Positions 2,405-39,173 of a stretch of DNA of 64,000 nucleotides are shown here, piece after piece. The notes beneath the pieces were generated by a model, which was not told the DNA's origin, did not search any database, and saw only the letters and a list, made by a program, of their open reading frames with translations. The stretch lies in the IMG/VR virus record IMGVR_UViG_3300030518_000006, positions 32,774-96,773 of that record. One strand, given 5' to 3'. Positions within the stretch are counted from its first letter, which is position 1, and the number at the start of each line of letters is the position of its first letter. This stretch comes from a virus. The position numbers and the translations under genes are program-made.

Positions 2405-2405
2405 C

Positions 2406-15681: not shown

Positions 15682-15979
15682 GGGCAGCGTTCGGACGGTC
15701 ATGACCCCAAACCCCGACTGGTACCAGCGTTTCTGCGCGCGGTATAAATCTGGGCGCCATCGGAAGAACCGGGCCTTCGAGACGAGCGTCCGGCGCCAGA
15801 AGACAGAGCGGGCCTTGAAGCGGATCATCAGCGGAGAGGTGCATACGATGGCGTACGCGAACCACGGCAAAAGCCCCTACGTCAGCCGGCTGATCCCTGA
15901 GATTCGGGACTATCTGCGGCGGGGAGATCAAGAGCGGAAAGAGCAGCGAGCACAAAGACTCGCGAGCGTGCCGTTTTGA
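15566..15979 (+). CDS. Hypothetical basic protein (start uncertain)
   Basis: Fills the gap and its stop overlaps the next start. Confidence 0.45.
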   Translation: MLSKPKPLPKRLVQGARWMLDELQHQRLTVVLTPAREGEGSVRTVMTPNPDWYQRFCARYKSGRHRKNRAFETSVRRQKTERALKRIISGEVHTMAYANHGKSPYVSRLIPEIRDYLRRGDQERKEQRAQRLASVPF

Positions 15980-16617
15980 GCGCCAAGCTCACCATCGCCG
16001 CTCCACGCCAACCCGTCGCCCAGCTCCCCATCTGGGACTGGGTTGGCGACGTGCAGTTCTATTCGATGGCCCAGACCCGCAACGCCACAGGAGAATTCTG
16101 TGAAGAAGCAACCCGGCATCTCCTCGGCGGCGAGCGGCTCTCCACCCAAGGAACGGTGGACATCTGCCCGGACATCCGATTGGACGAGCATCGTTATCTT
16201 GAGGTTAAATCGGTGGGGGATCGGCGATGCGCCCTCCTCTACGAGCATATCCTCGACCGAACAATCCGGTTCGTCCGCCGTAACCGGGTCAAGGTCTTCT
16301 ATGTCTTCTGGATCCACACCGTTCCCGCCGCCAAGTGTCCCAGTCTATTCGATTTGCGACGGGCGATGGCCGCATCTATTGATCGTGTCATCATCGTCCC
16401 CTTCACCCAGGTGCACGAGGCGATCAAGGGCATCACGCCCCGGAAGATGAACTACCGGGTCCGGGAGCACAGCGGGGAGCAGATCGCTATGCTCGGCTGG
16501 TCGATTCCGGTCAAGCAGCTGAAGGCCTGGAGCGTCGGACAGCCGCGAATGGCGTTTGACACCGAGGTCTTCGGGTATTCGATGGGTGGGTATCCGGTCT
16601 ATGGAGACGTGCGATGA
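15976..16617 (+). CDS. PD-(D/E)XK restriction-endonuclease-like protein
   Basis: GEFCE ... CPDIRLDEHRYLEVKS fits PD..ExK. Confidence 0.55.
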   Translation: MSAKLTIAAPRQPVAQLPIWDWVGDVQFYSMAQTRNATGEFCEEATRHLLGGERLSTQGTVDICPDIRLDEHRYLEVKSVGDRRCALLYEHILDRTIRFVRRNRVKVFYVFWIHTVPAAKCPSLFDLRRAMAASIDRVIIVPFTQVHEAIKGITPRKMNYRVREHSGEQIAMLGWSIPVKQLKAWSVGQPRMAFDTEVFGYSMGGYPVYGDVR

Positions 16618-16754
16618 CCCTTCCCCCGCCCGTCATCTCGCTTGAGTCGCTGCTCTTCTGGAACCTGGCCGCCGCGGTCGGCATCACACTGCTCGTCCGG
16701 TTCTTGGTGCTCTGGCTCGCCCGTACCCTATTTGGAGAGGGCCATGACCACTGA
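16614..16754 (+). CDS. Small membrane protein (copy 1)
   Basis: MTLPPPVISLESLLFWNLAAAVGITLLVRFLVLWLARTLFGEGHDH; ATGA overlap; duplicated at 20005. Confidence 0.6.
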   Translation: MTLPPPVISLESLLFWNLAAAVGITLLVRFLVLWLARTLFGEGHDH

Positions 16755-16890
16755 GCAGCTATACTACGCGACCGGCATCGCTTCCAATGTTCTGACCATC
16801 CTGACCTGCGCCTACACCATCTGGACGCTCCGCAGCTGGGTGAGCAGCACGGTGAAGAAGGCGCTCGACGACGTGAAGAAAGTGATCTGA
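16744..16890 (+). CDS. Small membrane protein (copy 1)
   Basis: MTTEQLYYATGIASNVLTILTCAYTIWTLRSW...; duplicated at 20135. Confidence 0.6.
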   Translation: MTTEQLYYATGIASNVLTILTCAYTIWTLRSWVSSTVKKALDDVKKVI

Positions 16891-16891
16891 C

Positions 16892-17653
16892 ATGCCGAAA
16901 TACCGCCAGGCGTCCGCGTATTCTCCGCCCGAGGACCCATTCCCAGTATTGAGGCCCACCATGCCCACCCCCATCCACCCGTGCGATGCACTTACCACAC
17001 TCGAACCGAAGCAGCAGGGGGCCTTTCCTGATCCAGTGCGCTTCCCACCGCCGAAGGGCTCGGAGGGTTCCTGCGGCTGCCTCCTGACCGAGTGGCCGAA
17101 CCCGCTCGATGGAAACCCGCCCTACCAGAAACTTGAAACGATCTGGCAGCCGCTCTGGGATACCGTCTCGGCCCCAGAAGGCATGAAGGTCATGAACTTC
17201 TTCTCCGGCGATCGAGAGGACGACATCCTCTACGGAGAACGCGACCGCATGGGGTACCAAAAGAAGATGCGCGCCGATAACGGGCGCAGCTTCCCACGTT
17301 CCATCGGCGCGATGTTCTGGCCGAAGAAGTTCACCATGTGGGAGCTCGAGCTGCAGTTCAGTGATCCCAACGGATACGGGGACAGCATCCCCTCGAAGCT
17401 CGGCCTGCTCGATACCATCGAAGGCGACTTCGCTCGGATCCGGATGCAGATCGGGGAAAAGTGGCATCTCGACCTCCCCTTCGCGTCTTTTTTCAAGGCT
17501 AGAGAGGACAACTACCGCGCGGCACTCTGCACCCCGCTCTTCCTCCCCTCGATACAGAACTTCGGCATCAGCCTGACCTGGCCGCGAGAATCCCGGGCCC
17601 GGTGCACTATCCGCTGCGTTCTCAACGGCTATCTCCACCGCGAAATTCCCTGA
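16892..17653 (+). CDS. Divergent paralogue of the putative major capsid protein
   Basis: LETIWQPLWD, WPKKF, IGEKWHLDLP, LFLPSIQNF, LNGYLHREIP align with 36927-37502. Confidence 0.75.
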   Translation: MPKYRQASAYSPPEDPFPVLRPTMPTPIHPCDALTTLEPKQQGAFPDPVRFPPPKGSEGSCGCLLTEWPNPLDGNPPYQKLETIWQPLWDTVSAPEGMKVMNFFSGDREDDILYGERDRMGYQKKMRADNGRSFPRSIGAMFWPKKFTMWELELQFSDPNGYGDSIPSKLGLLDTIEGDFARIRMQIGEKWHLDLPFASFFKAREDNYRAALCTPLFLPSIQNFGISLTWPRESRARCTIRCVLNGYLHREIP

Positions 17654-17661
17654 GCCTGACC

Positions 17662-18012
17662 ATGCCCCTCTACCACCTCCTCGCTCAGCCCCTGCCCAAG
17701 CTCACTCCCGACGGGAAGCGCGTCTGGGTCTGCATCTGCGGCCAGAAGGTCGCCCTGCCGAACGTCCAGCCGGCGAGCCAGGTGATCCAGACCTCGAACA
17801 ACCGGGTGGAGGTCATGGAGTGCCCGGCCTGCTATGCTGGTACCGAGGAAAAGGGCGAAGAAGCCCCTCCGATGACCGAGCAGGGGGATATCAAACCGAC
17901 CTTCGACCAAGATCTGGGAGATGCCACGGACGACCAATCTGCGCCGGATGAGACGGGTGAAGATGGGGAGGTTCTGGAGGAGGAGAAGGTCGACTTCCCT
18001 GACGCGCGATGA
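17662..18012 (+). CDS. Zn-ribbon protein with acidic tail (copy 1)
   Basis: WVCICG..MECPAC; paralogue at 20283-20633. Confidence 0.65.
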   Translation: MPLYHLLAQPLPKLTPDGKRVWVCICGQKVALPNVQPASQVIQTSNNRVEVMECPACYAGTEEKGEEAPPMTEQGDIKPTFDQDLGDATDDQSAPDETGEDGEVLEEEKVDFPDAR

Positions 18013-19844
18013 CCCGATATGGAAGCCTTTGTAGCGGTATTGAAGCAGCCACCGTTGCTTGGGATGGGATGGGATGGGAACCTGCATGGTTTAGCCAGTT
18101 CGATCCACAGCGTCCTGAAGGAGATTTCCCCTCTAGAATACTGGCCCACCACTACCCTGAAGTGCCTAACCTTGGGGATATTACATCTGAGAACTGGCTG
18201 ACTCGGGCTTCAAGCTATGGCGATATCGACGTATTGGTTGGTGGAACCCCCTGCCAAGCGTTTTCCATTGCCGGGTTGCGCAAAGGCCTTGAAGATCGCC
18301 GGGGCCAATTATCCCTTCGTTTTGTGGAGATAGCCGATGCCGCAGACCCACCCGTCATCCTCTGGGAAAACGTCCCTGGAGTCCTTAGTGATCGAACCAA
18401 TGGATTCGGTTGCCTCCTCGCTGGGCTTGCCGGTGAAGATGTGCCGCTCCAGCCAGCAGGGCGAACATGGTCGAACGCTGGTTGTGTGTTTGGCCCCAAA
18501 AGAACAGTCGCATGGCGGGTCCTCGACGCCCAATATTTCGGACTGGCCCAACGACGCCGGCGTGTGTTTGTTGTCGCAAGTCCTGGAGCCAGCGGCATCG
18601 ATCCATGCGAGATTCTATTTGAGTTCGAAGGCGTGCGCCGGGATTCTCCGCCGAGCCGCGAAGCGGGGGAAAGTACTTCCCATCCAATTGCACCGTGCCC
18701 TGATCGGAGTGGTACAGGGTTCAGTCGAACCGGAGATATCCGGGGACAGGATCCCGTTGTAGTCTGCATTACAGGTGATCGGACTCACGCGCTGAGCGCG
18801 GAAGGTGCAGATGCAGGTGAAGATGGAACGGGACGGGGAACCCCAATTATCGCTGTCGGAGGAAATAATACTAGCGGCCCTATTACTGTTGCTGCTGCTT
18901 TGAATGCGAATAGGGGATGCCCTAACCCAGGAGACTTTGAGGCTGGAACCTTGCTTGTCGCCTTCGATACGACCCAGATCACTAGTAAGACGAATCGCTG
19001 CCAGCCGAAGCACGGAGATCCCTGTCACCCTCTTGCTGCTGCTGCTCATCCTCCGGCGATAGCGATCCAGGAGCGAGCGATCTGTGAGAACCCCGATGCT
19101 GGACCTGATGGGATCGGGGTTCGCACTGATGACTGTGCTTATATCCTGGAAGCTCGAGGCGTTTCGCAGGCAGTATGCTTCCACCCGACACAAGACCCGA
19201 TCCCGAATAGCGATAATATCTGCCATGCTCTTGGTTGCGGGAACGGTCAGGGGCACGCAGCAGCAGCAGCAGTGAATATCGGGGTTCGGGTCCGCCGTCT
19301 TACTCCTCGCGAGTGTGAACGCCTGCAGGGATTCCCAGATGACTATACTGATATCCCAAAGAAAGTCTTTCGAGGTACCCCGAAAGACTCAGGCCCATGT
19401 AAGAAACAAATTGTTGTCGCCACTGTTGTTTCATTGAACGGCACCCATTATGTTGGCACAAATCATACGATGAACCCTCAAACGACTTGCCCCCGGGCTG
19501 GAATGCCAACTGGCGTCGGATATGAATTATGTCGCTCAATATGCCAGCAAACGGCACATGCAGAAGTAAACGCTCTTCAGCTTGCGGGCCGTAAAGCTCG
19601 CGGAGCAATACTTTATATAGAGGGGCACACATACGCTTGTGAGCCTTGCCTTAAAGTAGCTAAAGCCGCCGAGATTAGTTCTATTGTTTTTGGGAAGCCT
19701 CCTGGCACCAGCGCCGATGGCCCCCGCTATAAAGCTCTTGGAAACAGCATGGCTGTCCCGGTAATGCGCTGGTTGGGATGGCGGATCGACAGTGCCTTGC
19801 GTACACGTTTGGGTGGGTATCCGGTTTATGGGGAGATTCGGTGA
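18009..19844 (+). CDS. DNA cytosine-C5 methyltransferase with inserted Zn-dependent deaminase domain
   Basis: Motifs SLCSGIE, GGTPCQAFS, WENVPG, AQRRRRVF, RRLTPRECERLQGFP, RYKALGNSMAV; HAE..CEPC domain between the last two. Confidence 0.9.
   Translation: MTRYGSLCSGIEAATVAWDGMGWEPAWFSQFDPQRPEGDFPSRILAHHYPEVPNLGDITSENWLTRASSYGDIDVLVGGTPCQAFSIAGLRKGLEDRRGQLSLRFVEIADAADPPVILWENVPGVLSDRTNGFGCLLAGLAGEDVPLQPAGRTWSNAGCVFGPKRTVAWRVLDAQYFGLAQRRRRVFVVASPGASGIDPCEILFEFEGVRRDSPPSREAGESTSHPIAPCPDRSGTGFSRTGDIRGQDPVVVCITGDRTHALSAEGADAGEDGTGRGTPIIAVGGNNTSGPITVAAALNANRGCPNPGDFEAGTLLVAFDTTQITSKTNRCQPKHGDPCHPLAAAAHPPAIAIQERAICENPDAGPDGIGVRTDDCAYILEARGVSQAVCFHPTQDPIPNSDNICHALGCGNGQGHAAAAAVNIGVRVRRLTPRECERLQGFPDDYTDIPKKVFRGTPKDSGPCKKQIVVATVVSLNGTHYVGTNHTMNPQTTCPRAGMPTGVGYELCRSICQQTAHAEVNALQLAGRKARGAILYIEGHTYACEPCLKVAKAAEISSIVFGKPPGTSADGPRYKALGNSMAVPVMRWLGWRIDSALRTRLGGYPVYGEIR
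18337..18762 (+). CDS. Alternative-frame polypeptide nested in the methyltransferase (M.EcoHK31I beta-like)
   Basis: WPNDAGVCLLSQVLE..FYLSSKACAGILRRAAKRGKVLP resembles the overlapping-frame product known in this MTase subfamily. Confidence 0.6.
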   Translation: MPQTHPSSSGKTSLESLVIEPMDSVASSLGLPVKMCRSSQQGEHGRTLVVCLAPKEQSHGGSSTPNISDWPNDAGVCLLSQVLEPAASIHARFYLSSKACAGILRRAAKRGKVLPIQLHRALIGVVQGSVEPEISGDRIPL

Positions 19845-20008
19845 TCCATATCGTTCTGTGTTCAGCCGTAGTTCTCCTTATCGTAGGGTTAATGCTTTAT
19901 GTCACGGAGAGGCGGTTGCGAAGCTGGCCGGTATTTGTCCGCGTGTTATGGTATACAATGCTCGTTGTGGCAGCCTTCAATACTATGCACGGAGCATTTT
20001 TCGAATGA
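19841..20008 (+). CDS. Small two-TM protein
   Basis: GTGA overlap with MTase stop; two hydrophobic stretches. Confidence 0.45.
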   Translation: MIHIVLCSAVVLLIVGLMLYVTERRLRSWPVFVRVLWYTMLVVAAFNTMHGAFFE

Positions 20009-20145
20009 CTCTTCCCCCGCCCGTCATCTCGCTTGAGTCGCTGCTCTTCTGGAACCTGGCCGCCGCGGTCGGCATCACGCTGCTCGTCCGGTTCTTGGTG
20101 CTCTGGCTCGCCCGTACCCTATTCGGAGAGGGTCATGACCACTGA
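20005..20145 (+). CDS. Small membrane protein (copy 2 of 16614)
   Basis: Near-identical DNA to 16614-16754. Confidence 0.6.
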   Translation: MTLPPPVISLESLLFWNLAAAVGITLLVRFLVLWLARTLFGEGHDH

Positions 20146-20281
20146 GCAGCTCTACTACGCGACTGGCATCGCCTCCAATGTTCTGACCATCCTGACCTGC
20201 GCCTACACCATCTGGACGCTCCGCAGCTGGGTGGGCAGCACGGTGAAGAAGGCGCTCGACGACGTGAAGAAAGCGATCTGA
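20135..20281 (+). CDS. Small membrane protein (copy 2 of 16744)
   Basis: Near-identical DNA to 16744-16890. Confidence 0.6.
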   Translation: MTTEQLYYATGIASNVLTILTCAYTIWTLRSWVGSTVKKALDDVKKAI

Positions 20282-20282
20282 C

Positions 20283-20633
20283 ATGCCCCTCTACCACCTC
20301 CTCGGCCAGCCTCTCAACATCGACCCCAACACTGGCAAGCGCATCTGGGTCTGCCTGTGCGGGCAGAAGGTGAGCCTGCCGAATGTCCAGCCGGCGAACC
20401 AGGCGATCTCGATCTCCAACAACCGGGTGGAGGTCATGGAGTGCCCGGCGTGCTACAACGCCACGGATGAGAAGGAGGAAGAGGCCGCGCCGGTCAGCGA
20501 GACCGACGGGGAGCTCAAGCCGACCTTCGATCAGGACATCGGCGAGGCCACTGATGACCAGGAGGCACCTGACGAGACCACCGGCGACGGTGAGGTGCTC
20601 AAGGAAGAAAAGGTCGATTTCCCGGATACCTGA
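20283..20633 (+). CDS. Zn-ribbon protein with acidic tail (copy 2)
   Basis: WVCLCG..MECPAC, paralogue of 17662-18012. Confidence 0.65.
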   Translation: MPLYHLLGQPLNIDPNTGKRIWVCLCGQKVSLPNVQPANQAISISNNRVEVMECPACYNATDEKEEEAAPVSETDGELKPTFDQDIGEATDDQEAPDETTGDGEVLKEEKVDFPDT

Positions 20634-20651: not shown

Positions 20652-21014
20652 ATGGCGACTCTCCTCTATGAGAAACACTACGTCGGTACCGATGAGAACG
20701 TACCCACGGGTGAAGAGACCCTCTATTTCTGGTGCCCTGGCTGTAGAGGCGGTCATATGTACCGCATCAAGCGCAAGGACGGGGATACTCAGCAGCCCTT
20801 GTGGACCTGGAATGGCAGCAAGGAGAAGCCGACCTTCACCCCGTCGCTGCTGTATTACGAGACCGATCCGGTAACGGAGAAGCGCAAGTCGATCTGCCAT
20901 ATCTACGTCACGGGCGGAATGATCCAGTTCCTCGCGGATTGTCAGCATCACCTCGCTGGGAAAACGGTGCCCATGGTCGATCTGGATCTCCCTCTCAGTG
21001 AGCGGGAACGATAG
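20652..21014 (+). CDS. DUF6527-like Zn-binding protein
   Basis: FWCPGC..H..WTWNG..KPTFTPSLL..CH..G.IQFLADC.H.LAG. Confidence 0.7.
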   Translation: MATLLYEKHYVGTDENVPTGEETLYFWCPGCRGGHMYRIKRKDGDTQQPLWTWNGSKEKPTFTPSLLYYETDPVTEKRKSICHIYVTGGMIQFLADCQHHLAGKTVPMVDLDLPLSERER

Positions 21015-21065: not shown

Positions 21066-21551
21066 ATGGGTTACACCCGCACCCCGGCGCACTACACCGC
21101 TAGCGCTGCCTATCACGGCGGCGATCCGGTGTGGATCCGCCCTGCCAATCTCGACCTGCGCCGTATCAACCCCCAAGGCGGGGCCGCGCTCGGCGACGAC
21201 GGCATTGACCTGATCGCGATGATCCCCCAGCTGACCCAGACCCTGGCAACCGTGGGCACCACGGCAGTCCAGTTGCGGGAACAGCAGATCCAGAACCAAC
21301 GCCAGGACGCGAACCAGGCCCAAGCCGTCGCCGCGACGAATGCGCAGACCGCCGCCCTGGAGCAAGCAACGGCGGCGAACCAAGCCGTCGCCGACCCAAC
21401 CGCATCGCCTGCGGCGGTACCGACTCCAGGCGTGTCACTTCCCACCCCGCACGGCAAGAAGGGGGGCGGCATGACTGTCCCCCTGATCATCGGGGGTACC
21501 GTCATCGGGATTGCCGTGGTTCTGGCATTGCTCAAGCTCCGCCGGGGCTGA
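21066..21551 (+). CDS. Tail-anchored virion membrane protein
   Basis: C-terminal TM followed by KLRRG. Confidence 0.65.
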   Translation: MGYTRTPAHYTASAAYHGGDPVWIRPANLDLRRINPQGGAALGDDGIDLIAMIPQLTQTLATVGTTAVQLREQQIQNQRQDANQAQAVAATNAQTAALEQATAANQAVADPTASPAAVPTPGVSLPTPHGKKGGGMTVPLIIGGTVIGIAVVLALLKLRRG

Positions 21552-21552
21552 T

Positions 21553-22767
21553 ATGGCCCGGTCCTACCAGCCCAACCTCGGGGCGCTCGAGCAGGCCCGG
21601 TACCAACACATGCACCGGAGAGCACGCAACCAGCTGGCCGGGTTGGGAGACGCATCCGTTCCGTACGTCCCGTCGGTCGCGGTCCAGGCAGCGATGACCC
21701 CGAACCTGACGGGCAGTGGCCCGACCATGACCCAGACCGCAGCGGTCACCGCCACCATGAAGTCGGCAATCATCGCCGCGGCGGTTGAGGTGTCCCTGGC
21801 CCAGACCATCGTCTCCACTGTCGGGGATGCCGTTATCAGCGCGGCCACAGTCGCCGCTGCCACGGCAATCACCGGTACTGCGGTCGCCGCAGGAGCCGCC
21901 GCCACGTCTGCATGCTTGTCCGCCGGGTGCTGCTGGCCGATTGTCGGGTGGGCCTTCGACGCCTTGGTGATCATCGGGGAATTCATCTCCAGCCAATCCG
22001 CCAAGCGCCAGACGGCGTTCGTGATCCAAGAGACCAAGGATCATATCAGCGCCTATGGCCAGGCGGCCCAGGCCGAGATCGACGCCATGCAACTCCAGAT
22101 CGGGCAGTCCGTCTACCCGACCGCACAGGCCCTGGCTGCGTCGACCCAGGCCCTCAACGGCTTCAACGGACTCGGGGGTCTGCCGCCGTGGGCTCGGGAA
22201 GTGATCTCCAAGGTCCAGGTCGATCTGATCAAGCAGGTCGGCAATCTGATCCTGAGTACCGGTGAACTCGGGGCCAAGATCGTGGGGGACAAGCATGGGG
22301 AAGAACTGGCTGCTAAGAAAAAGAAGCAGTTCGACGACAACTCGGACCGGGTCCAGCAGATGTTCTCCGGCAAGCTCAAGAACCCCTACCGGATGTTCGC
22401 CGACGGGCTCGACGATATCGGGCGCACCCTCGGGGGTGAGCAGGGCGTGCACGTGATCAACCAGAAGTGCTCTGAACTCCAGACGGCGGCCGAGGCAGAC
22501 ATCGATACCTGGAAGACCCAGACCGAGGCGGTGCTCCAGACCCCCGACTACACCCAAGCGGTCACCGTCAACATCGCCAAGGCCCTACGCGCGGACCCGA
22601 GTTTTACCGCCAATGTCACCACGATCGCGGCCAACAACCAGATGCTGGTGGCCTACTTCAACGGACTCAACGGGCTCTCCACCGACTCGTCCCGAGCGAA
22701 CAGCGCCGGTGGCTTGGTGGCGACCCTCGGAGGCATCGCTGCCGCCCTCTATTTCTTTAAGCATTGA
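21553..22767 (+). CDS. Tail-anchored virion membrane protein with GLG motifs
   Basis: LAGLGD, NGFNGLGG, NGLNGL; Ala-rich hydrophobic core; C-terminal TM + KH. Confidence 0.65.
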   Translation: MARSYQPNLGALEQARYQHMHRRARNQLAGLGDASVPYVPSVAVQAAMTPNLTGSGPTMTQTAAVTATMKSAIIAAAVEVSLAQTIVSTVGDAVISAATVAAATAITGTAVAAGAAATSACLSAGCCWPIVGWAFDALVIIGEFISSQSAKRQTAFVIQETKDHISAYGQAAQAEIDAMQLQIGQSVYPTAQALAASTQALNGFNGLGGLPPWAREVISKVQVDLIKQVGNLILSTGELGAKIVGDKHGEELAAKKKKQFDDNSDRVQQMFSGKLKNPYRMFADGLDDIGRTLGGEQGVHVINQKCSELQTAAEADIDTWKTQTEAVLQTPDYTQAVTVNIAKALRADPSFTANVTTIAANNQMLVAYFNGLNGLSTDSSRANSAGGLVATLGGIAAALYFFKH

Positions 22768-22791
22768 AATACCAACCATACCCCCTATCCT
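22764..22791 (+). promoter_or_regulatory. Sigma70-like promoter
   Basis: TTGAAA-16-TATCCT upstream of 22849. Confidence 0.4.
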
Positions 22792-22848
22792 GGCATCATC
22801 CGCTCTCATGAGCCCCGCGCCAACTTCTCCTTTCTAGGAACCCTACCC

Positions 22849-23520
22849 ATGGCTGGCTACCCCTCGATCAATGCTCCCGGCGCCCGTTCGCTCGCGGTGC
22901 CCCCGCCCAAGAGCCTGAAGATCCCGCTCGGGCGCCGACTGGACGCCAAGATGGCGAAGAACCTCATGTCCGCCCGCCCCAAGCGCGTGCCGCGCGACAA
23001 TGGCGGCGGCGGGTTCTTCCCCGGCATGGGTGAAGAGATGGACGAGACCGAGGTCAAGGTCGGGTACTCCGATCTCGGCCGGTGGTACGGCCCGAACCAG
23101 CGCCGCCCGGCGACCAGCGGCATGGCGCGCACCAATCGCCTTGCCGGCCTGGGCGACACCCCGACCGCCGGCTCCGGCACCCCCGGTGCGGCCACCGCGG
23201 CTCCCGCCCCGATCATCAAGCGCGTGCCCAATACCCCGCGTCACCTGGTGACCCAAGGCACCCCGACATCGATCTCCTCGGTCTCCGGCCTCGGCGCGCT
23301 GCACGCGGCAGCCCACGCCGCCCACGCCAAGACCAAGCATGCGGCGATCGTCAAGCACGCGGCGATCAAGGTGCACAAGCTCGCCCCGGCACACGACGGG
23401 TTCATGCCCGGCTTCGGCGCCTTCGACATGGCGAGCCTGACCAGCCCCAAGATGCTCATCGGCGGGGCGCTCGCCTTCGGCGCCTGGTATTTCCTGCTCC
23501 GCAAGAAGCGCCGCGCCTGA
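22849..23520 (+). CDS. Tail-anchored virion membrane protein with GFMPG/GLG motifs
   Basis: GFFPGMG, LAGLGD, SGLGA, DGFMPGFGA; C-terminal TM + RKKRRA. Confidence 0.7.
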   Translation: MAGYPSINAPGARSLAVPPPKSLKIPLGRRLDAKMAKNLMSARPKRVPRDNGGGGFFPGMGEEMDETEVKVGYSDLGRWYGPNQRRPATSGMARTNRLAGLGDTPTAGSGTPGAATAAPAPIIKRVPNTPRHLVTQGTPTSISSVSGLGALHAAAHAAHAKTKHAAIVKHAAIKVHKLAPAHDGFMPGFGAFDMASLTSPKMLIGGALAFGAWYFLLRKKRRA

Positions 23521-23523
23521 GCC

Positions 23524-23973
23524 ATGGGCTGGCTGACCCCCGAGATCACCGCCCCCGTCACCCTGAAGCTCACCGCTGATGACGTGCGGCGCGAGGCCCT
23601 GGGGCGGATCCTGTCGCTCTCCGGGGCAAGTGTCGGCATCATCGGGGGCATCCTGATCCTGTCCGCGAATCCGGCGCTCAAGGGCGCGGTCACCGCCGGA
23701 CAGGGCCAGACCATCACCCTGAGCGTCGCGGACGCCAAGAAGAGCGCCCTGGGCAAGTCCTTGGCCCTCATCGGTACTGGCATCGGTGTGGCAGGCTCCC
23801 TGCTGGTGATGAGCTCGAACCCGAAGTCCAAGGCCAAATTCGCGTCCGCCTATGACGCCCTGCCCGCCGGACTCAAGACCCACAAGAACGTGCTGATGGC
23901 CCTCGGTGGTGCCGCCGTGGTCGGCGGGATCGCCTACATGCTCAAACTCCAGAACTCGCAGTACGCCACATGA
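23524..23973 (+). CDS. Three-TM membrane protein
   Basis: Three Gly-rich hydrophobic segments. Confidence 0.65.
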   Translation: MGWLTPEITAPVTLKLTADDVRREALGRILSLSGASVGIIGGILILSANPALKGAVTAGQGQTITLSVADAKKSALGKSLALIGTGIGVAGSLLVMSSNPKSKAKFASAYDALPAGLKTHKNVLMALGGAAVVGGIAYMLKLQNSQYAT

Positions 23974-25763
23974 GCGACAACATCTTCACCCCGGTCGGCA
24001 ACACGGACGAGGCGTCGGCCCTGATGGGAACCAGCGGCCGGGTCTGGTCCCCCTTCTCCCCGTTCTTCAACCAGCGCGCCGCGGTGAAGCGAGACTTCGC
24101 CGAAGAGCGCGGCCGGTTCAAGCGCATCATGCGCCGCAATCCCCTCTCCGAGCAGGAGAAGCTCGCCCTGGTCAGCGGCACCGATCCCAAGGCTATCGTC
24201 CCGGTCACTGCCTCGCTCGCCGTCGGCGGCTTGATCGTGAACCGTGCTTGGGAGGATGCCGCTGACTACTGCGAGTATCTGGTCCGCCACTACCATTCCC
24301 GGATAGGTGGTGCGCGAGCGAAGGCGGACGCTGCGCGAGCGAAGAAGGGGCAGGGCCCGAAGATCATATCCAGTTCAGCCATTACCTGGGCGGTGGCGTT
24401 CAGCGCCATCGGCCAATACTGCAGGGCCCTGGCCGAGGGCCGGGAGCCGACGCGCCCTGCGCGCACCATCGCCGACCGGAAGGTGGGGGCGGTGATCTCG
24501 ATGTGGGATGACGTCCGCAAGTCCTGCCTGGCCGCGGAGGGCAACGTCAAGCTGCCGTTTGCCGCCTATTCCGAGATGCCGGTGGTGACCTGCCCCGGTG
24601 CCGGTGGGGTGACCAAGTTCTCCGGCCTGACGGGCAAGACCCTCGGCGTGGCAGTGCCAACCGGTCCCGATGTCCGCGGTTGCGCGTCCTTCTGCTACTC
24701 CCTGAAGGCCTTCGGCAAGCCCACCTGCGTCGCCCGCCAGCTGATCCTGACCCTCGGCGCGGCTGTGGATCCGGTGCGCCACGCCCAGGTAGTCACCGAG
24801 CAGATGACCAAGCTCGCCAAGAAGGGGACCAAGATCCTGCGCCTGTTTGTCGATGGGGACTTCCGCAGCGAAGCCTCGATCATTGCCTGGATGGACCACT
24901 GCGTCCGCCCGCTGCATGCGCTCGGCGTCACCGTCTATGGGTACAGCAAGTCGTGGGAGCATCTCCATGCCGTGCACCGGCAGAAGGGCGCATCCTGGTG
25001 GCCGACCAACTATGTGATGAACATCTCGAGCGGCAGCCGCTTCGCATCGGATCCGACCTGGCAGGCGCGCATCCGTGAACTGCCGGTTGCCCGCGGCGGT
25101 TTCCTGGCGGTGGATCCAATCCAGCGTCTGCTGTGGAAGGCGATGACCAAGGTTCACGGTGAAGCGGTCTGGCAGAAGTACTGCAACGCGGCCAGCCGAC
25201 ACGTCGGTCACCCCGGTGCGGCCGAGAAGCTCCTGCATGCTGTGAAGTCCATGATTGGCAAGGCGAACCCGGCCCTCGTCACCGATTACAACAACTACGT
25301 CAACACCATCCACATCATCGAGAATAAGCCGAGTGTGCTCAAGCGCATCGCCTCGATCGCCGGCGAGAAGGCACTCAAGCCGGGCCCAGTTGTCCAGGCC
25401 AGCACCTGGGCCTTCTTGTCCGAGCTGGTCAAGGGGCAGGAGATGCCGTGCCCGATCGCATGCGGGTCGTGCCCAAAGACCGCGATCATCACCCACGACA
25501 AGGTTGTGCGCGCCGCCTTGCAGCCGGAGCTCGATGCCCTCGGGGCCGAAATGCAGAAGAAGCACGGGATCTCGGAGAAGGAGCGCCGAGACTGGGAGGA
25601 ACACGTCCGGGGCACCGACGCGACGACCGTGTCTGCTGGCGAGGCTGAGGCCCGCAAGAACTACCGCGCCCAGGTCGCCGCCCAGATCGAGAAGGGCTCA
25701 CCGCTCATGCACTGGTGCGGGAACAAGAAGATGAAGCAAGACATCATCATCGGGTTGCATTGA
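23970..25763 (+). CDS. GP88-family-like Cys-motif protein with N- and C-terminal extensions
   Basis: VTCPGAG..CASFCYSLKA..RLFVDGDF..YGYSKS..PTNYVMNIS resembles phage GP88 family. Confidence 0.65.
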   Translation: MSDNIFTPVGNTDEASALMGTSGRVWSPFSPFFNQRAAVKRDFAEERGRFKRIMRRNPLSEQEKLALVSGTDPKAIVPVTASLAVGGLIVNRAWEDAADYCEYLVRHYHSRIGGARAKADAARAKKGQGPKIISSSAITWAVAFSAIGQYCRALAEGREPTRPARTIADRKVGAVISMWDDVRKSCLAAEGNVKLPFAAYSEMPVVTCPGAGGVTKFSGLTGKTLGVAVPTGPDVRGCASFCYSLKAFGKPTCVARQLILTLGAAVDPVRHAQVVTEQMTKLAKKGTKILRLFVDGDFRSEASIIAWMDHCVRPLHALGVTVYGYSKSWEHLHAVHRQKGASWWPTNYVMNISSGSRFASDPTWQARIRELPVARGGFLAVDPIQRLLWKAMTKVHGEAVWQKYCNAASRHVGHPGAAEKLLHAVKSMIGKANPALVTDYNNYVNTIHIIENKPSVLKRIASIAGEKALKPGPVVQASTWAFLSELVKGQEMPCPIACGSCPKTAIITHDKVVRAALQPELDALGAEMQKKHGISEKERRDWEEHVRGTDATTVSAGEAEARKNYRAQVAAQIEKGSPLMHWCGNKKMKQDIIIGLH

Positions 25764-25832
25764 CGTGCTAACTGGCCCCCGTTCACGAATTCCAGTAGAA
25801 TCCGCCACAACCCTGGATACAGTAGGCCACCT

Positions 25833-26267
25833 ATGATCCGCCGACGCCGCAGCCATCGCCGCTTCCGCCGCAACGCGCGCCCTGGTGAGAACCAGATCCC
25901 GACCGTGCGCATCGTCCGCCGGCCGAGCAAGAACCCCCGCCGCTTCATCCGCCGCAATGTGCCGATCACCCCGGCGCAGGCTGCCGCGATGAAGGCTGTC
26001 CTCCGAGCTCACGGCTACCTCAAGACCAACCCACTCCGCCGTCGCCACAAGCGGCGCAATCCCCGAAAGCACCGCATGGCACGCCATCACCGCAAGGTCC
26101 GCCGGAACCCCGCACCCCCGAAGGGCAAGCGCGCTGGCAGCGTGTTCAAGCGCAAGGGCAAGTGGTTCCGCATCTCACTCAAGAAGGTCCGCAAGGGTCG
26201 CCGCGTCGTCCGCCGCCGCGTCACCGTCAAGACCACCGCCCGCGCCGCGAAGCGCAGCCGCCGCTAA
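25833..26267 (+). CDS. Arg/Lys-rich core (DNA-condensing) protein with NP motifs
   Basis: 144 aa, extremely basic; SKNP, KTNP, RRNP x2. Confidence 0.7.
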   Translation: MIRRRRSHRRFRRNARPGENQIPTVRIVRRPSKNPRRFIRRNVPITPAQAAAMKAVLRAHGYLKTNPLRRRHKRRNPRKHRMARHHRKVRRNPAPPKGKRAGSVFKRKGKWFRISLKKVRKGRRVVRRRVTVKTTARAAKRSRR

Positions 26268-26301
26268 GCCTGCTCACCCTCACCTGATTCTGGAGACTCC
26301 C

Positions 26302-26532
26302 ATGCCCCGTCGCCGCCACAGCCGCTACCGCCGGAACCCCGGCAAGCTCCCCGTCAAGGTCACCTTCCGCAAGGGTGGCAAGCACGTGGTGATCTTCCGT
26401 CACCACAAGGCCACCGCCGCGACCAAGGCCAAGCGCCGGGCCGCGGGCAAGCGCCTTGCCAAGATGTGGACCGCCAAGGAGCGGATGGCGAACCTGCGCA
26501 AGGCGTGGGCTGCGAACCGCCGCCGTCGCTGA
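26302..26532 (+). CDS. Small basic core protein
   Basis: 76 aa; RRNPGK; RBS GGAG. Confidence 0.7.
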   Translation: MPRRRHSRYRRNPGKLPVKVTFRKGGKHVVIFRHHKATAATKAKRRAAGKRLAKMWTAKERMANLRKAWAANRRRR

Positions 26533-26605
26533 GTCGACCGTCAGCTGACCCGCAGCCCGGTCCTCCGCATCCTTGCGCGACCGGGCGGCACACCAGGACG
26601 AGCAC

Positions 26606-27697
26606 ATGCTCCCGCTCATCATCGGCATCGGCGCCGCAGCCCTCCTCCTCGGCCGTAAGGTCGTACGACGGACACGTCGGAATCCGCGGACGTATCGGCG
26701 GGTGAGTCGGAGGAATCCGCTAGAGGCCTATCACTTCTACTTCAGCACCCACCCGTCACTGATCCACGGGAAGCGTATCGGGTGGACCCGTTACGGCATG
26801 AGCGCCGAGCAAGTGAAACGGCTTGGCATCGCAGCAGCGAAACATGACTACCCGAAGGCCTGTGACTTCGCAGTGGCGAAGATCAAGAAAGGTTTACGGG
26901 CCAACCCCCTCCGCCGCGGCTCCTCCCGTGCCACCATCAGCGGCAACATCCGTAAGCTGATCCATGAAGGGCGCCCGCAGAAGCAGGCCATCGCCATCGC
27001 GCTGCGCACCGCTGGTGTCGCACGACGCAACCCGACCAACTGGGAGCAGCTGTTCGCCCAGGAGATGGCCCGCCAGCGCGCCGCTGGCACTGCAGCGCCC
27101 AAGCCGACCGGGTATGCAAGCGTCGCGACGATGCCGAACCCCGGGAAAATAGGGAATCGAATCGTCGCGCGTCACATGATCATGACGCAGGGGCGTGATA
27201 AATCTCTGCGCGAAGCGATTGATAAGCAACTCATGTATTCCCCTGGATCCAGGGAGCGTAAGAACTGGGCAGAGATTGCCCGTATCCTCGCGGGCAAGAC
27301 CAATCCACCCCGCCGCAAGGGCAAGCGCAAGGTCCGCCGCTCAAAGATCTCGGTGAGTCAGGCTGCGGCGCGGCTGATGCAGTGGCGGTGGCATCACAAC
27401 CCGGGAGGCAGCGATCTGGTGCCCTGGATTGTCGAGACCACCGAGATGCGCGGCTTCTCCCACGGCAAGCCCAACATCCGCACCGAGAAGAGCGCCTTCC
27501 GCGGTAAGAGCCACACCGCCAAGGCTCTCGCTGCTTGGGTGCTGCGCTACAACCAGTCCTTCACCTCGGGCGGGGTCAACAGTCACGCTTCCAAGGCCTT
27601 CGGCTACGAGCCCTACGCCTTCAAGGCCAAGCTGATCAACCAGCGCAATGGGCGAGTCGCCGCGACCTACAGCGCTCCGAAGTTCCAGGTGCTCTGA
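26606..27697 (+). CDS. N-terminally anchored basic multi-module protein with seven NP motifs (putative polyprotein)
   Basis: Start MLPLIIGIGAAALLLG; RRNP, RRNP, RANP, RRNP, MPNP, KTNP, HHNP separate distinct segments. Confidence 0.7.
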   Translation: MLPLIIGIGAAALLLGRKVVRRTRRNPRTYRRVSRRNPLEAYHFYFSTHPSLIHGKRIGWTRYGMSAEQVKRLGIAAAKHDYPKACDFAVAKIKKGLRANPLRRGSSRATISGNIRKLIHEGRPQKQAIAIALRTAGVARRNPTNWEQLFAQEMARQRAAGTAAPKPTGYASVATMPNPGKIGNRIVARHMIMTQGRDKSLREAIDKQLMYSPGSRERKNWAEIARILAGKTNPPRRKGKRKVRRSKISVSQAAARLMQWRWHHNPGGSDLVPWIVETTEMRGFSHGKPNIRTEKSAFRGKSHTAKALAAWVLRYNQSFTSGGVNSHASKAFGYEPYAFKAKLINQRNGRVAATYSAPKFQVL

Positions 27698-27700
27698 CCC

Positions 27701-30700: not shown

Positions 30701-31027
30701 CACAAGAAGCACAAGTATTACAACATGGACACCGACTCGGGCGGTGACAACTCGGACACCAGCGACAGCGGCGAGGCCTCCGACGATGACAGTGACCTCG
30801 ACACCGGGATCAACGGCGACGTGGCCACGGGGGACATGTACCCCGAGGACGATCTCAACGAGGATGGGGGCGCCGGCTACGGCCGGGGCACCGCCCTGAC
30901 CCCGTCGATCGAAGGCCTCGGGGCCTTCTCCGCCTCCAGCCTGGTCAAGCCGGCACTCGCGATCGGCCTGGGCATCATCCTGTGGAAGACCGTCGGTAAG
31001 AAGCTCTTCAAGCGGAAGCGTGCCTGA
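27701..31027 (+). CDS. Transglutaminase-like (Cys-His-Asp) protein, candidate maturation protease, with long tail-anchored C-terminal region
   Basis: YVKD..ETL..P..EDCDG, SHVY, WAADP; then GFMPGFG/GLG motifs, Cys-rich repeats, acidic DDGGS repeats, TM + KKLFKRKRA. Confidence 0.8.
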   Translation: MRSATPSLADGDINADYSVLPENGNDAVDATVQKMVEMAAGKWGRESPKIRAAAINIVRGLDPITGERFAPQVASKDYYGMLEQIHNWVRDNIMYVKDVVGQETLSYPEETLFNSRAEDCDGQVILEMALLGSIGLQSYPVIVGMFPGHYSHVYMYAEVPPGRHRNADTTWAADPIMKDWPLGREAPADRVKAKKVYSNLAGFNMPLNGYASSDAAFSPQDELEATQVGTVLATRLTDSGGAGQIVNANRLTQWGDELDDMFNAEATVNPMQAAPASLLYARGPVVARAAREQTSYLSEAPLGGGRNRPGMRRGPLIITVKDKAVGDSVTKPKAPTVNGLMGLADYLGELAPIAKVVGKRMSVNGKRDALHATAAAAHLAKNQAKKATNRVVKLQRDGFMPGFGADMQPDKTLDVAMQIEKLAHQVSAQADQIAQLAAGSSPLRQQALSVDLGAMDYMNEHAAVSDLLDNMQLPNVPTKDMAKLKSVALVNCIQDPDVKQLAVDLAQTDLPTAPGARVKTRLPEGAIVRDQMGKVIQNGGGDDSLAGLGELTRKRRIKRALAEFNESTDTSAIANALRASANGLAGYANEPGLGRSLSQAISGVAKSVVASITVPVKAAVATVVDPIKLAQTVATGGSVKAALTSDVQNVTNPMNQALKQIVTSTQKAPSTPATPATQYEDANGNIISAGLYNSLMLNPSTPESCFDANGSALNTTGCVYAPGTPGATVTQTTGASTLSQFPGGTCFSASGASTGATGCFSPSTGAACWTFTSATTAPTATNAAPDCPMAPVSGYNPQVMGPYASGPGAQCFNVTTGQPTGVPGCTSPSTGVACYAWQGPSAPPVATNAAPDCAGATYNPYAAQQPYYPPGGGASPYDQSTPDGTNYDPNTGESLTSTPDYSNQGPPDDSGFGPDQMGPASYADNSQQDENTVAVSASGGGGFDPSGNSGITAGGQSDSGDDGSDDGGSDDGGSDDGGTDDGSGDATDVSQYNAPSQAPKHKKHKYYNMDTDSGGDNSDTSDSGEASDDDSDLDTGINGDVATGDMYPEDDLNEDGGAGYGRGTALTPSIEGLGAFSASSLVKPALAIGLGIILWKTVGKKLFKRKRA

Positions 31028-38861: not shown

Positions 38862-39173
38862 CTAGGCCTTCTCTGCGTCCTTGACGGGCGCTATACCGAT
38901 GATGGTACGAATCCGGGCCTTGGCCACCTCGCTGAGTCCCTGGAAGGCCAAGTCGATCATCTCCGGGTGGTCATTCACCAGCTCGCCGAAGACCTTGGAT
39001 GCGATATACTTGCCCGCCCCGTCCTTCTTCGCCAGGTTCTTACCCGCGGTGATCGCCGGGATGATCCCCATCATGTCGAGCTTGAACCCGTTGCCGGCGA
39101 AGAGCCCGTCGAGCGTCGAGCGGATGGTACCGAGCACCTTCTGGACGTCGGGGTCGGTGGAGTGGTCGGTCAT
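38862..39173 (-). CDS. Hypothetical protein
   Basis: Tightly coupled ORF. Confidence 0.6.
   Translation of the reverse strand: MTDHSTDPDVQKVLGTIRSTLDGLFAGNGFKLDMMGIIPAITAGKNLAKKDGAGKYIASKVFGELVNDHPEMIDLAFQGLSEVAKARIRTIIGIAPVKDAEKA

What the first reader, a model, noticed from the sequence alone, without database searches (positions are those of the whole stretch)
19392..19700. Zn-dependent deaminase domain inserted in-frame between motifs IX and X of a C5 DNA methyltransferase
Seen: between RRLTPRECERLQGFPDDYT and DGPRYKALGNSMAV, normally a short linker, lies ~100 aa GPCKKQ..GTN..NPQTTCPR..GYELC..IC.Q..HAEVNAL..GAILY..GHTYACEPC. It has the HAE and CxxC motifs of the cytidine/dCMP deaminase superfamily, and all MTase motifs remain intact. 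Inference: a bifunctional enzyme that could couple cytosine methylation with deamination (5mC to T, targeted mutagenesis or anti-restriction) or salvage methyl-dCMP. I know of no characterised example.
Basis: partly seen in the sequence, partly recalled or inferred. Interest (0 to 1): 0.82.

Follow-up and report, generated by a model that had tools for sequence, protein, structure and literature searches.

The report
Methyltransferase with an embedded mini-deaminase
A virus gene encodes a DNA cytosine methyltransferase with a small, intact cytosine-deaminase domain spliced into it, and the same two enzymes are neighbours or fusions in many other phages, which points to an undescribed way for phages to handle methylated cytosine.

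Summary
ORF 18009-19844 (+), 611 aa, is a complete C5 DNA methyltransferase. About 122 aa lie between motifs IX and X, with a roughly 105-aa zinc-deaminase core (Pfam PF00383 above cut-off; HAE and CxxC invariant; AlphaFold pLDDT 96.8).

It is neither an assembly artefact nor a singleton. The identical protein lies on 58 contigs from four sources, and 26 clusters are listed as fusions, most checked by domain or motif position.

The insert belongs to a distinct family of truncated "mini-deaminases", mostly stand-alone phage proteins of 100-150 aa. In IMG/VR, 22 of 80 loci with such a deaminase carry a C5 methyltransferase within 1.5 kb. The two ORFs usually abut or overlap, in either order. Four fusion layouts exist. 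The pairing therefore looks functional and recurrent.

The fold is closest to nucleotide dCMP deaminases, not DNA deaminases. The virus has no thymidylate synthase, and the GC-rich palindromes tested show no erosion.

My best reading (about 0.45) is a deaminase of free, probably 5-methylated, deoxycytidine nucleotides released from methylated DNA. Deamination of 5mC in DNA remains open (about 0.25), because related phage enzymes (mSCD-B5) act on 5mC in ssDNA. No paper found in five full-text searches describes this pairing.

The scan had already noted this same gene on an overlapping window (e1-6021633).

The parts
18009..19844 (+). Whole gene: C5 DNA methyltransferase with embedded deaminase (611 aa, protein P0001)
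   Evidence: Open frame; PF00145 and PF00383; TIGR00675 dcm; identical protein on 58 contigs. GC 0.551 against 0.63 for the virus.
18009..18683 (+). Methyltransferase large-domain part, motifs I-VIII (aa 1-225), with catalytic Cys82 in PCQ, ENV 120-122 and QRRRR 181-185
   Evidence: Pfam stretch aa 5-190; residues invariant in A1; pLDDT mostly above 90.
18684..19289 (+). Variable (target-recognition) region, aa 226-427, built from about five short modules that recur in a different order and number in relatives
   Evidence: Module sequences shared and shuffled among homologues; poorly modelled (pLDDT below 50). Reading it as multispecific is an inference.
19290..19349 (+). Motif IX (aa 428-447)
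   Evidence: Invariant V428, R429, E435-Q440 and others; second Pfam PF00145 stretch at the matching genome position.
19350..19715 (+). Insert between motifs IX and X (aa 448-569); mini-deaminase core about aa 461-565 (19389-19703)
   Evidence: PF00383 and PF14437; PHROG dCMP deaminase families; 538 homologues; fold pLDDT 96.8; lowest GC of the gene, 0.492.
19557..19565 (+). HAE (His517-Ala-Glu519): zinc ligand and catalytic glutamate
   Evidence: Invariant in the fusions and at 90% or more in the 82-member family alignment.
19638..19649 (+). CxxC (Cys544, Cys547): zinc ligands
   Evidence: Invariant in the fusions and at 90% or more in the family.
19716..19844 (+). Motif X (DGPRYKALGNS) and C-terminal helix, plus stop codon
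   Evidence: Invariant D570, G571, R573-K575, G578-S580; PHROG methyltransferase C-terminal matches at aa 568-596.
16614..16907 (+). Direct repeat, copy 1, flanking the cassette
   Evidence: 294 nt, 95% identical to 20005-20298.
20005..20298 (+). Direct repeat, copy 2, flanking the cassette
   Evidence: The last ten residues of the methyltransferase (GGYPVYGEIR) match the end of ORF 15976-16617 (GGYPVYGDVR).

Best explanation
SHOWN: The gene encodes one polypeptide that joins a complete phage-type C5 DNA cytosine methyltransferase with a compact zinc deaminase. The methyltransferase has a mosaic recognition region that is probably multispecific. The deaminase keeps every catalytic residue. It belongs to a distinct 'mini-deaminase' family of about 105 aa that lacks helix 1, helix 4 and strand 5 and carries a four-cysteine second zinc site. 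This family is recurrently paired with C5 methyltransferases in phages and prophages, as abutting genes in both orders and as at least four fusion layouts. The window's gene is the fused form of a two-enzyme module, sitting as a low-GC acquired cassette in a 96.8-kb virus made largely of orphan genes. INFERRED: The methyltransferase methylates many sites in phage DNA, and unavoidably in host DNA, to block restriction. The deaminase acts on free deoxycytidine nucleotides, most likely the 5-methylated ones (5m-dCMP or 5m-dCTP) released when methylated DNA is degraded during infection. It would convert them to thymidine nucleotides. That both salvages them, with no need for a thymidylate synthase, and stops 5mC from being re-incorporated at random positions.
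For: Architecture and authenticity. Family: 538 homologues, mostly stand-alone proteins of 100-150 aa, with a conserved C...N...CPR...GxGY..C...CxQ..HAE...C..C pattern. Pairing with methyltransferases comes from several results. In Sphingomonas locus L065 the deaminase ORF overlaps the start of a P0001-like methyltransferase. In Paraburkholderia locus L074 the methyltransferase is followed by the deaminase with an apparent ATGA overlap, a start estimated from the printed translation. Of 80 IMG/VR deaminase loci, 22 carry a C5 methyltransferase, always within 1.5 kb although 8 kb was searched on each side; 21 are on the same strand and 18 have ORFs whose ends lie within 50 nt or overlap, not counting the fused L133. 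PF00145 is by far the commonest family among 150 flanking ORFs: 24, against 5 for the next. The methyltransferase-linked deaminases fall in 14 separate runs of the family tree. Fusion layouts: IX-[D]-X (P0001 type, one clade, support 0.957); just before motif X in a distant methyltransferase (P0209/L133, separate clade, 0.998); inside the variable region (P0280, Aurantimonas coralicida); and C-terminal (P0281). Evidence for a nucleotide substrate: the best structural matches are nucleotide deaminases. Foldseek ranks 7fh4 PBCV-1 dCMP/dCTP deaminase and 2w4l human dCMP deaminase first. VIA gives a near-tie at Z 7.1-7.6 among dCMP deaminases (4p9c, 2hvv, 7fh4, 1vq2, 2w4l), guanine deaminase 1tiy, cytidine deaminase 3dmo and RibD 2b3z. 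DddA scores Z 3.0-3.2, APOBEC and AID 2.7-3.1, and the dsDNA deaminase DddB 5.0. [quoted passage not shown] Family members are also fused or adjacent to NTP pyrophosphohydrolases (P0213; dGTP_diPhyd_N in 5 flanking ORFs; Langgrundblatt1). The virus has no ThyA or ThyX to use dUMP. Precedent: phage dCMP-deaminase-family enzymes that hit the same two Pfam models and the same PDB neighbours are selective for 5-methyl-dC nucleotides and occur beside cytosine-methylating enzymes (bioRxiv 10.1101/2024.12.05.627091).
Against: No biochemical data exist for any member of this family, and the substrate is inferred from fold and context only. The domain lacks helix 4, strand 5 and the conserved Tyr that canonical dCMP deaminases use, so its pocket may be more open than theirs. 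Repeated physical fusion to a DNA-bound enzyme, once in among the recognition modules (P0280), is not needed for an enzyme of free nucleotides and fits action on DNA just as well. The characterised 5mC-selective relative mSCD-B5 also deaminates 5mC in ssDNA. In those phages 5mC is made at the nucleotide level by a thymidylate-synthase homologue, whereas here free 5m-dC nucleotides could arise only from DNA breakdown. The structural Z-scores (about 7.6) are modest.
Confidence: 0.45

Rival explanations
1. Methylate-then-deaminate on DNA. The tethered deaminase converts 5mC (or C) to T (or U) in DNA at or near the sites the methyltransferase binds. This would give sequence-directed C-to-T change, for instance to erase restriction sites for good, to damage host DNA in a way uracil glycosylase cannot see, or to diversify sequences.
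For: Four different fusion layouts all keep the deaminase on a DNA-bound enzyme, including one among the recognition modules (P0280). The pairing is tight and recurrent. Related phage deaminases act on 5mC in ssDNA (10.1101/2024.12.05.627091). The family lacks the C-terminal elements of nucleotide deaminases. Some members are fused to endonuclease VII, a DNA enzyme (P0173/P0179).
Against: The nearest folds are nucleotide deaminases, and most DNA deaminases score clearly lower (DddA Z 3.0-3.2, APOBEC/AID 2.7-3.1, DddB 5.0). The zinc-bound cap insert is kept. The virus genome shows no loss of CpG (O/E 1.01) or of GGCC, CCGG, GCGC or CGCG (0.92-1.06), although the true target sites are unknown. 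Self-mutagenesis would be costly. The endonuclease VII fusions could simply be homing-endonuclease read-throughs.
Confidence: 0.25
2. An ordinary dCMP/dCTP deaminase that raises the dUMP/dTTP supply, as T4 Cd does. Its link to the methyltransferase would be only co-expression within an early or accessory module, and the fusions would be accidents of overlapping genes.
For: PHROG and Pfam matches are to dCMP deaminases. Stand-alone members sit in replication modules near primase-helicase and NTP pyrophosphohydrolase genes. A C-terminal fusion (P0281) is what loss of a stop codon between overlapping genes would give.
Against: Chance does not explain 24 of 150 flanking ORFs being C5 methyltransferases of very different subfamilies, in both gene orders and in 14 separate tree positions. 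Nor does it explain three separate in-loop insertions. No thymidylate synthase is encoded by this virus, and none appears in the 25 flanking-ORF families that were displayed out of 60. A 63% GC virus has little need for extra dTTP.
Confidence: 0.15
3. The domain works on another small molecule tied to methyltransfer. One candidate is the product inhibitor S-adenosylhomocysteine. Another is mechanism-based poisons of C5 methyltransferases such as 5-aza-deoxycytidine nucleotides.
For: Two independent insertions lie directly before motif X. Motif X and the C-terminal helix fold back into the large domain next to the N-terminus (PMC5944983). That motif X lines the cofactor pocket is my recollection of the M.HhaI structures. 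dCMP-family deaminases are known to metabolise decitabine (abstracts listed).
Against: As far as I know, no CDA-fold enzyme deaminates free adenosine derivatives. The other fusion positions (variable region, C-terminus) are not at motif X. Family features point to a pyrimidine nucleotide.
Confidence: 0.06
4. The insert is a catalytically dead structural or zinc-binding module, kept only for folding, oligomerisation or DNA binding.
For: It lacks three secondary-structure elements of the canonical fold. No activity has been measured.
Against: The catalytic Glu, which zinc binding alone does not need, is invariant in the fusions together with His and both Cys, and is conserved at 90% or more in the 82-member family alignment.
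Confidence: 0.04

Closest known systems
[quoted passage not shown] 2024, bioRxiv 10.1101/2024.12.05.627091)
   Same: Phage-encoded. They match the same Pfam models (PF00383, PF14437) and have the same nearest solved structures (7fh4, 4p9c, 1vq2). They are genetically linked to an enzyme that methylates cytosine.
   Different: mSCD-B5 is a full-length 154-aa dCMP-deaminase fold linked to thymidylate-synthase homologues that make 5m-dCMP before replication. Here the domain is a truncated module of about 105 aa, linked or fused to a post-replicative DNA C5 methyltransferase, and no thymidylate synthase is present. Selectivity for 5mC is untested, and I could not compare sequences directly because none was held.
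Canonical dCMP deaminases / ComEB clade (T4 Cd, cyanophage S-TIM5, PBCV-1 bi-DCD, human DCTD)
   Same: HAE(x)NA and CxxC zinc site. [quoted passage not shown] They are among the best structural matches, tied with guanine deaminase, cytidine deaminase and RibD.
   Different: It lacks helix 1, helix 4, strand 5 and the Tyr after strand 4. It has no TxxxT in strand 3. The second site has four Cys instead of Cys/Cys/His/Cys. Sequence matches are weak (PDB E about 0.25).
Multispecific phage C5 methyltransferases (Bacillus phages SPR and phi3T; P1 Dmt C5 part)
   Same: A phage-borne orphan C5 methyltransferase with a long variable region made of tandem modules. P1 Dmt aligns at 45% identity.
   Different: None of the 1,253 matching phage records covers 80% or more of the protein. 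The deaminase part alone finds only 9 phage records, under stand-alone deaminase or hypothetical genes. That the known multispecific enzymes lack a deaminase is my own knowledge. Target specificities here are unknown.
E. coli dcm-vsr overlapping gene pair
   Same: A C5 methyltransferase gene translationally coupled to a small accessory gene that deals with 5mC deamination chemistry (own knowledge).
   Different: Vsr is an endonuclease that repairs the T:G products of 5mC deamination. Here the partner is itself a deaminase.
C-to-T conversion by C5-methyltransferase homologues (fungal RID in repeat-induced point mutation; SAM-starved bacterial methyltransferases)
   Same: A conceptual link between C5 methyltransferases and cytosine deamination (reference 103 in PMC3239186; own knowledge).
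   Different: In those cases the methyltransferase fold itself is proposed to cause the deamination. No separate zinc deaminase domain is involved.

Membership tests
C5 DNA cytosine methyltransferase (Pfam PF00145 / TIGR00675) | Profile match above the curated cut-off | tested here: met
   PF00145 at 123.5 bits (cut-off 22). TIGR00675 at 118.7 bits (cut-off 100.65).
C5 DNA cytosine methyltransferase (Pfam PF00145 / TIGR00675) | Catalytic motifs IV (PCQ Cys), VI (ENV) and VIII (QxRxR) and cofactor motifs I and X, in canonical order with the variable region between VIII and IX | tested here: met
   Read from the translation. Invariant in ten fused homologues.
C5 DNA cytosine methyltransferase (Pfam PF00145 / TIGR00675) | Methyl transfer to C5 of cytosine in DNA | not testable with these tools
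   Needs methylome sequencing of DNA from cells that express the gene.
CDA-fold zinc deaminase superfamily (Pfam PF00383) | H(C)xE in helix 2 and (P)CxxC at helix 3, with a profile match above the cut-off | tested here: met
   29.1 and 32.5 bits against cut-off 25. HAE and CxxC invariant.
CDA-fold zinc deaminase superfamily (Pfam PF00383) | Three-layer alpha/beta deaminase fold | tested here: met
   Model at pLDDT 96.8 with beta1-beta2-insert-alpha2-beta3-alpha3-beta4. Matches deaminases only, at Z up to 7.6 and Foldseek probability 1.00.
dCMP deaminase / ComE clade (as defined in PMC3239186) | [quoted passage not shown] | tested here: met
   Cys464 lies before strand 1, and Cys494, Cys508 and Cys512 lie in the insert. 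All are invariant and conserved family-wide. Variant: a Cys takes the place of the His.
dCMP deaminase / ComE clade (as defined in PMC3239186) | NA two residues after HxE | tested here: met
   HAEVNA. N521 is invariant and A522 at 90% or more in the fusions. It is only partly kept in stand-alone members.
dCMP deaminase / ComE clade (as defined in PMC3239186) | NxxP at the end of strand 2 | tested here: inconclusive
   N485 and P490 are invariant but spaced NxxxxP.
dCMP deaminase / ComE clade (as defined in PMC3239186) | TxxxT in strand 3; helix 4, strand 5 and the Tyr between strand 4 and helix 4 | tested here: not met
   Strand 3 reads ILYIE. The domain, and the stand-alone proteins, end just after strand 4. 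I therefore do not file it as a canonical dCMP deaminase; it is a truncated sister family.
5mC-selective phage deaminases (mSCD; 10.1101/2024.12.05.627091) | Preference for 5-methyl or 5-hydroxymethyl-dC substrates over dC | not testable with these tools
   This is a biochemical property. The paper reports it as polyphyletic, so it cannot be predicted from clade membership.
5mC-selective phage deaminases (mSCD; 10.1101/2024.12.05.627091) | A thymidylate-synthase homologue (dCMP methylase or hydroxymethylase) in cis | tested here: not met
   No PF00303 or PF02511 in the 96.8-kb virus, and none among the 25 flanking-ORF families displayed out of 60. The partner here is a DNA C5 methyltransferase.
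Multispecific phage C5 methyltransferases | Several tandem target-recognition modules, each conferring one specificity | tested here: inconclusive
   About five modules of 30-40 aa recur, shuffled, among relatives. Their role in recognition is inferred, and the region is modelled poorly.

The most novel reading that the evidence does not exclude
The methyltransferase-tethered mini-deaminase deaminates 5mC in DNA at or near the sites its partner has just methylated. That would make it a natural, sequence-programmed methylate-and-deaminate C-to-T editor. Phages could use it, for example, to erase restriction sites from their progeny for good, or to introduce T:G lesions into host DNA that uracil glycosylase cannot detect.
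Probability: 0.2. Interest if true: 0.92.

Novelty: new variant of a known kind. Interest (0 to 1): 0.72.

Why it matters
Both enzyme families are well known. What appears to be undescribed is a compact deaminase family that is recurrently paired with, and repeatedly fused into, phage DNA cytosine methyltransferases.

If the deaminase handles 5-methyl-dC nucleotides, it would reveal a housekeeping problem created by protective methylation, namely the recycling of methylated nucleotides, and a phage solution to it. That would parallel the role proposed for dCMP deaminase in animals.

If it acts on DNA, it would be a natural methylation-coupled base editor.

Either way, these domains of about 105 aa are the smallest members of a family that has just yielded 5mC-selective deaminases for methylome sequencing. 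The natural methyltransferase fusions give ready-made constructs to test.

Tried and rejected
1. Complex prediction on the unfused Sphingomonas pair (L065 methyltransferase plus deaminase, alignments A6 and A7) gave no verdict (score 0.00). This is no evidence either way.

Recurrence on 58 contigs and in diverged orthologues stands in for it.
- Two treekit calls got no answer. I used FastTree directly instead.

3. The 82-member alignment A3 had no stretch conserved enough for a genome-contig scan.

4. The PDB sequence search gave only spurious top hits to designed 'Cake' propeller proteins and weak deaminase hits. The fold search was needed.

I could not measure the distance or orientation between the deaminase pocket, the cofactor site and the DNA cleft.

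6. I first read two independent insertions just before motif X as a geometric constraint. I dropped that reading after finding a variable-region insertion (P0280) and a C-terminal fusion (P0281).

7. The k-mer test for erosion of target sites found none at common C5 targets. GGWCC (O/E 0.64) and AAGCTT (0.08) are depleted, but I cannot tie either to this enzyme.

8. Five of the six full-text literature searches looked for a description of this fusion or gene pairing and found none.
Full report
**Observation.**
The window is bases 32774-96773 of a 96,773-bp IMG/VR virus record rated 100% complete. ORF 18009-19844 (+) gives a 611-aa protein, P0001.

Motifs I, IV (PCQ), VI (ENV), VIII (QRRRR), IX and X are all present. 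Between the end of IX (aa 447) and DGPRYKALGNS (aa 570) lie 122 residues. They contain HAE (517-519) and CxxC (544/547).

**It is not an artefact and not a singleton.**
- The identical protein is recorded on 58 contigs from NCBI, JGI, Logan and ENA, the longest 97,383 bp.
- Nine other 90%-identity clusters among the first hits share the IX-[deaminase]-X layout at 49-63% identity. The methyltransferase catalytic residues, HAE, CxxC and four further cysteines (464, 494, 508, 512) are invariant in them.
- A search seeded from the insert found more. In all, 26 clusters are listed as fusions, most checked by domain or motif position. One is an NCBI protein from Aurantimonas coralicida that is annotated only as a DNA cytosine methyltransferase.

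**What the insert is.**
A full HMMER pass of aa 446-575 over 1.84 billion representatives found 538 proteins at E<=1e-3 and 282 at E<=1e-10. Of the 150 best, 102 are 100-199 aa long, mostly stand-alone proteins.

Aligned (A3, 82 sequences), the family has a core of about 105 aa with conserved Cys, Asn, Cys-Pro-Arg, GxGY, Cys, CxQ, HAE and CxxC. The stand-alone proteins begin just before strand 1 and end just after strand 4. The family as a whole therefore lacks helix 1, helix 4 and strand 5 of the usual deaminase fold.

The domain folds with pLDDT 96.8.
- Foldseek ranks PBCV-1 dCMP/dCTP deaminase (7fh4) and human dCMP deaminase (2w4l) first.
- The Foldseek-independent search gives a near-tie at Z 7.1-7.6. 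It includes five dCMP deaminases (4p9c, 2hvv, 7fh4, 1vq2, 2w4l) together with guanine deaminase, cytidine deaminase and RibD.
- DNA deaminases score lower: DddA 3.0-3.2, APOBEC and AID 2.7-3.1, and DddB 5.0.

Iyer et al. [quoted passage not shown] The first three features are present here. The spacing of the fourth differs, and the last two are absent. I therefore treat it as a truncated sister family, a "mini-deaminase", and not as a canonical dCMP deaminase. Stand-alone members occur in cultured Xanthomonas and Stenotrophomonas phages, annotated as deaminase or hypothetical.

**The main new result: the pairing is general.**
A scan of species-representative genomes gave two split forms.
- In Sphingomonas (L065), a 103-aa mini-deaminase ORF overlaps by 7 nt the start of a P0001-like methyltransferase that has a normal short IX-X linker.
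- In a Paraburkholderia MAG (L074), the methyltransferase is followed at once by the deaminase. The ATGA overlap is estimated from the printed translation.

A scan of IMG/VR with a deaminase alignment returned 80 loci.
- A methyltransferase N-domain profile hit 22 of them. Every hit lay within 1.5 kb of the deaminase, although 8 kb was searched on each side.
- 21 hits are on the same strand. In 18 loci the two ORF ends lie within 50 nt or overlap, not counting the fused locus L133. Both gene orders occur.
- The methyltransferases range from 229 to 668 aa, with profile E-values from 1e-120 to 3e-6.
- Some loci are duplicates: L105/L106 and L149/L151 have identical coordinates, and L120/L126 are near-identical.

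An unbiased Pfam tally of the 150 ORFs that flank the deaminase put PF00145 first with 24 members. Next came a dATP/dGTP diphosphohydrolase domain with 5 and N6/N4 methylases with 4. No thymidylate synthase appeared among the 25 families displayed out of 60.

On a tree of 237 deaminase domains, the methyltransferase-linked stand-alone genes fall in 14 separate runs.

Fusion has happened several times:
- The P0001 type forms one clade (support 0.957).
- P0209/L133 carries the domain just before motif X of a distantly related short methyltransferase and sits in a different clade (0.998).
- P0280 carries it inside the variable region.
- P0281 carries it at the C-terminus.

Other partners of the family are endonuclease VII, a MazG-like NTP pyrophosphohydrolase and an unknown 600-aa protein.

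**The methyltransferase and its setting.**
The variable region (aa 226-427) consists of about five short modules that recur in a different order and number in relatives. This recalls the tandem recognition domains of multispecific phage methyltransferases, but that reading is an inference.

The gene has GC 0.551 and the insert 0.492, against 0.63 for the virus. It lies between 294-nt direct repeats that are 95% identical. Its last ten residues repeat the end of an upstream gene. It is an acquired accessory cassette.

The virus encodes no ThyA or ThyX, no second deaminase and no second C5 methyltransferase.

**How it most likely works.**
Shown: this is a bifunctional polypeptide, the fused form of a recurrent methyltransferase-plus-mini-deaminase module, and both active sites are intact.

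Inferred: the deaminase works on free deoxycytidine nucleotides, most likely 5-methylated ones released when methylated host or phage DNA is broken down. It would turn them into thymidine nucleotides. The reasons are:
- The nearest folds are nucleotide deaminases, and the capping zinc insert is kept.
- The family has side links to NTP pyrophosphohydrolases.
- There is no thymidylate synthase to use dUMP.
- There is direct precedent. Yang et al. 2024 (bioRxiv 10.1101/2024.12.05.627091) showed that phage dCMP-deaminase-family enzymes hitting the same Pfam models and PDB neighbours are selective for 5mC. Their mSCD-B5 converts 5m-dCTP to dTTP, and these enzymes sit beside cytosine-methylating enzymes. 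In their case the partner is a thymidylate-synthase homologue, not a DNA methyltransferase.

The same paper shows activity on 5mC in ssDNA. Repeated tethering to a DNA-bound enzyme, once among the recognition modules, keeps a DNA-level methylate-and-deaminate role alive. Against it, the virus shows no erosion of CpG (O/E 1.01) or of GGCC, CCGG, GCGC or CGCG (0.92-1.06), although the real targets are unknown.

I give about 0.45 to the methyl-dC nucleotide reading, 0.25 to DNA deamination and 0.15 to a plain dCMP/dCTP deaminase with only regulatory linkage. Small odds go to another small-molecule substrate or a dead domain.

**Comparison with the known, and novelty.**
The closest functional precedent is the mSCD group. 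The closest structural relatives include the dCMP deaminases. The closest methyltransferases are orphan, probably multispecific phage enzymes such as the C5 part of P1 Dmt. A formal analogue of the gene pair is dcm-vsr.

Five full-text searches for this fusion or pairing found no description of it. PMC3239186 lists many deaminase fusions but not this one. I class it as a new variant of known kinds: a truncated deaminase family defined by its partnership with DNA C5 methyltransferases.

**Limits.**
No coordinates, reads or contexts of the other fusions could be obtained. The complex prediction gave no verdict. The base rate of methyltransferase neighbours was controlled only internally, by the absence of any hit beyond 1.5 kb in the same 16-kb loci.

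Noticed in passing
window 16614-16907 and 20005-20298; also 17713-17880 and 20334-20501: There is a segmental duplication: 294 nt at 95% identity and 168 nt at 80%. It brackets the low-GC methyltransferase-deaminase gene and a 253-aa ORF (16892-17653). The small genes 17602-18012 and 20283-20633 are paralogues. The methyltransferase's last ten residues (GGYPVYGEIR) repeat the end of ORF 15976-16617 (GGYPVYGDVR). It looks like cargo swapped into a duplicated scaffold.
   Followed up: partly
whole virus record (G000, 96,773 bp): AAGCTT is almost absent (2 occurrences on both strands against 25.7 expected). GGWCC is depleted (O/E 0.64, z -6.6), and so is CTAG (0.42). GC-rich 4-mer palindromes are at expectation. 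This may be restriction avoidance unrelated to the methyltransferase.
   Followed up: partly
window-wide; e.g. 1-6895 (-), 21511-31027 (+): Most large ORFs of this 96.8-kb virus have no Pfam or PHROG match. The exceptions seen are a GP88-like domain (23970-25763), DUF6527 (20652-21014), a serine recombinase/integrase (39170-40144, -), a helicase (49950-51524, -) and weak virion or tail-spike matches (3680-6895, -). The virus type and its host remain unclear.
   Followed up: partly
proteins P0145, P0152, P0154, P0140: In P0145, P0152 and P0154 the same mini-deaminase is inserted into an unrelated protein of about 600 aa that matches no other family (about 330 aa before the insert and 125 aa after). 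P0140 has it at the C-terminus of the same N-terminal region. This is a second host protein for the domain.
   Followed up: partly
proteins P0173/P0179 and P0213: There are mini-deaminase fusions to endonuclease VII (PF02945) and to a MazG-like nucleoside triphosphate pyrophosphohydrolase (phrog_4856). A dATP/dGTP diphosphohydrolase domain (PF18909) is the second commonest flanking family.
   Followed up: no
P0001 aa 226-427 (window 18684-19289) and relatives P0011-P0071: The variable regions of this methyltransferase family are mosaics of a limited set of modules of about 30-40 aa, such as FDTTQITS...CHPLAAGAHxPAIA, CVTGDxTHxLKAEGFDASEDGTGRG and IQAGALRxNPxSGPDGVG. The modules occur in differing order and number, as if recognition units were shuffled.
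   Followed up: partly
protein P0280 (NCBI, Aurantimonas coralicida, 663 aa) and P0273 (NCBI, 885 aa): Fused methyltransferase-deaminase proteins already sit in public databases. P0280 is named only 'DNA cytosine methyltransferase', and P0273 carries no name here. The deaminase domain has gone unremarked.
   Followed up: partly
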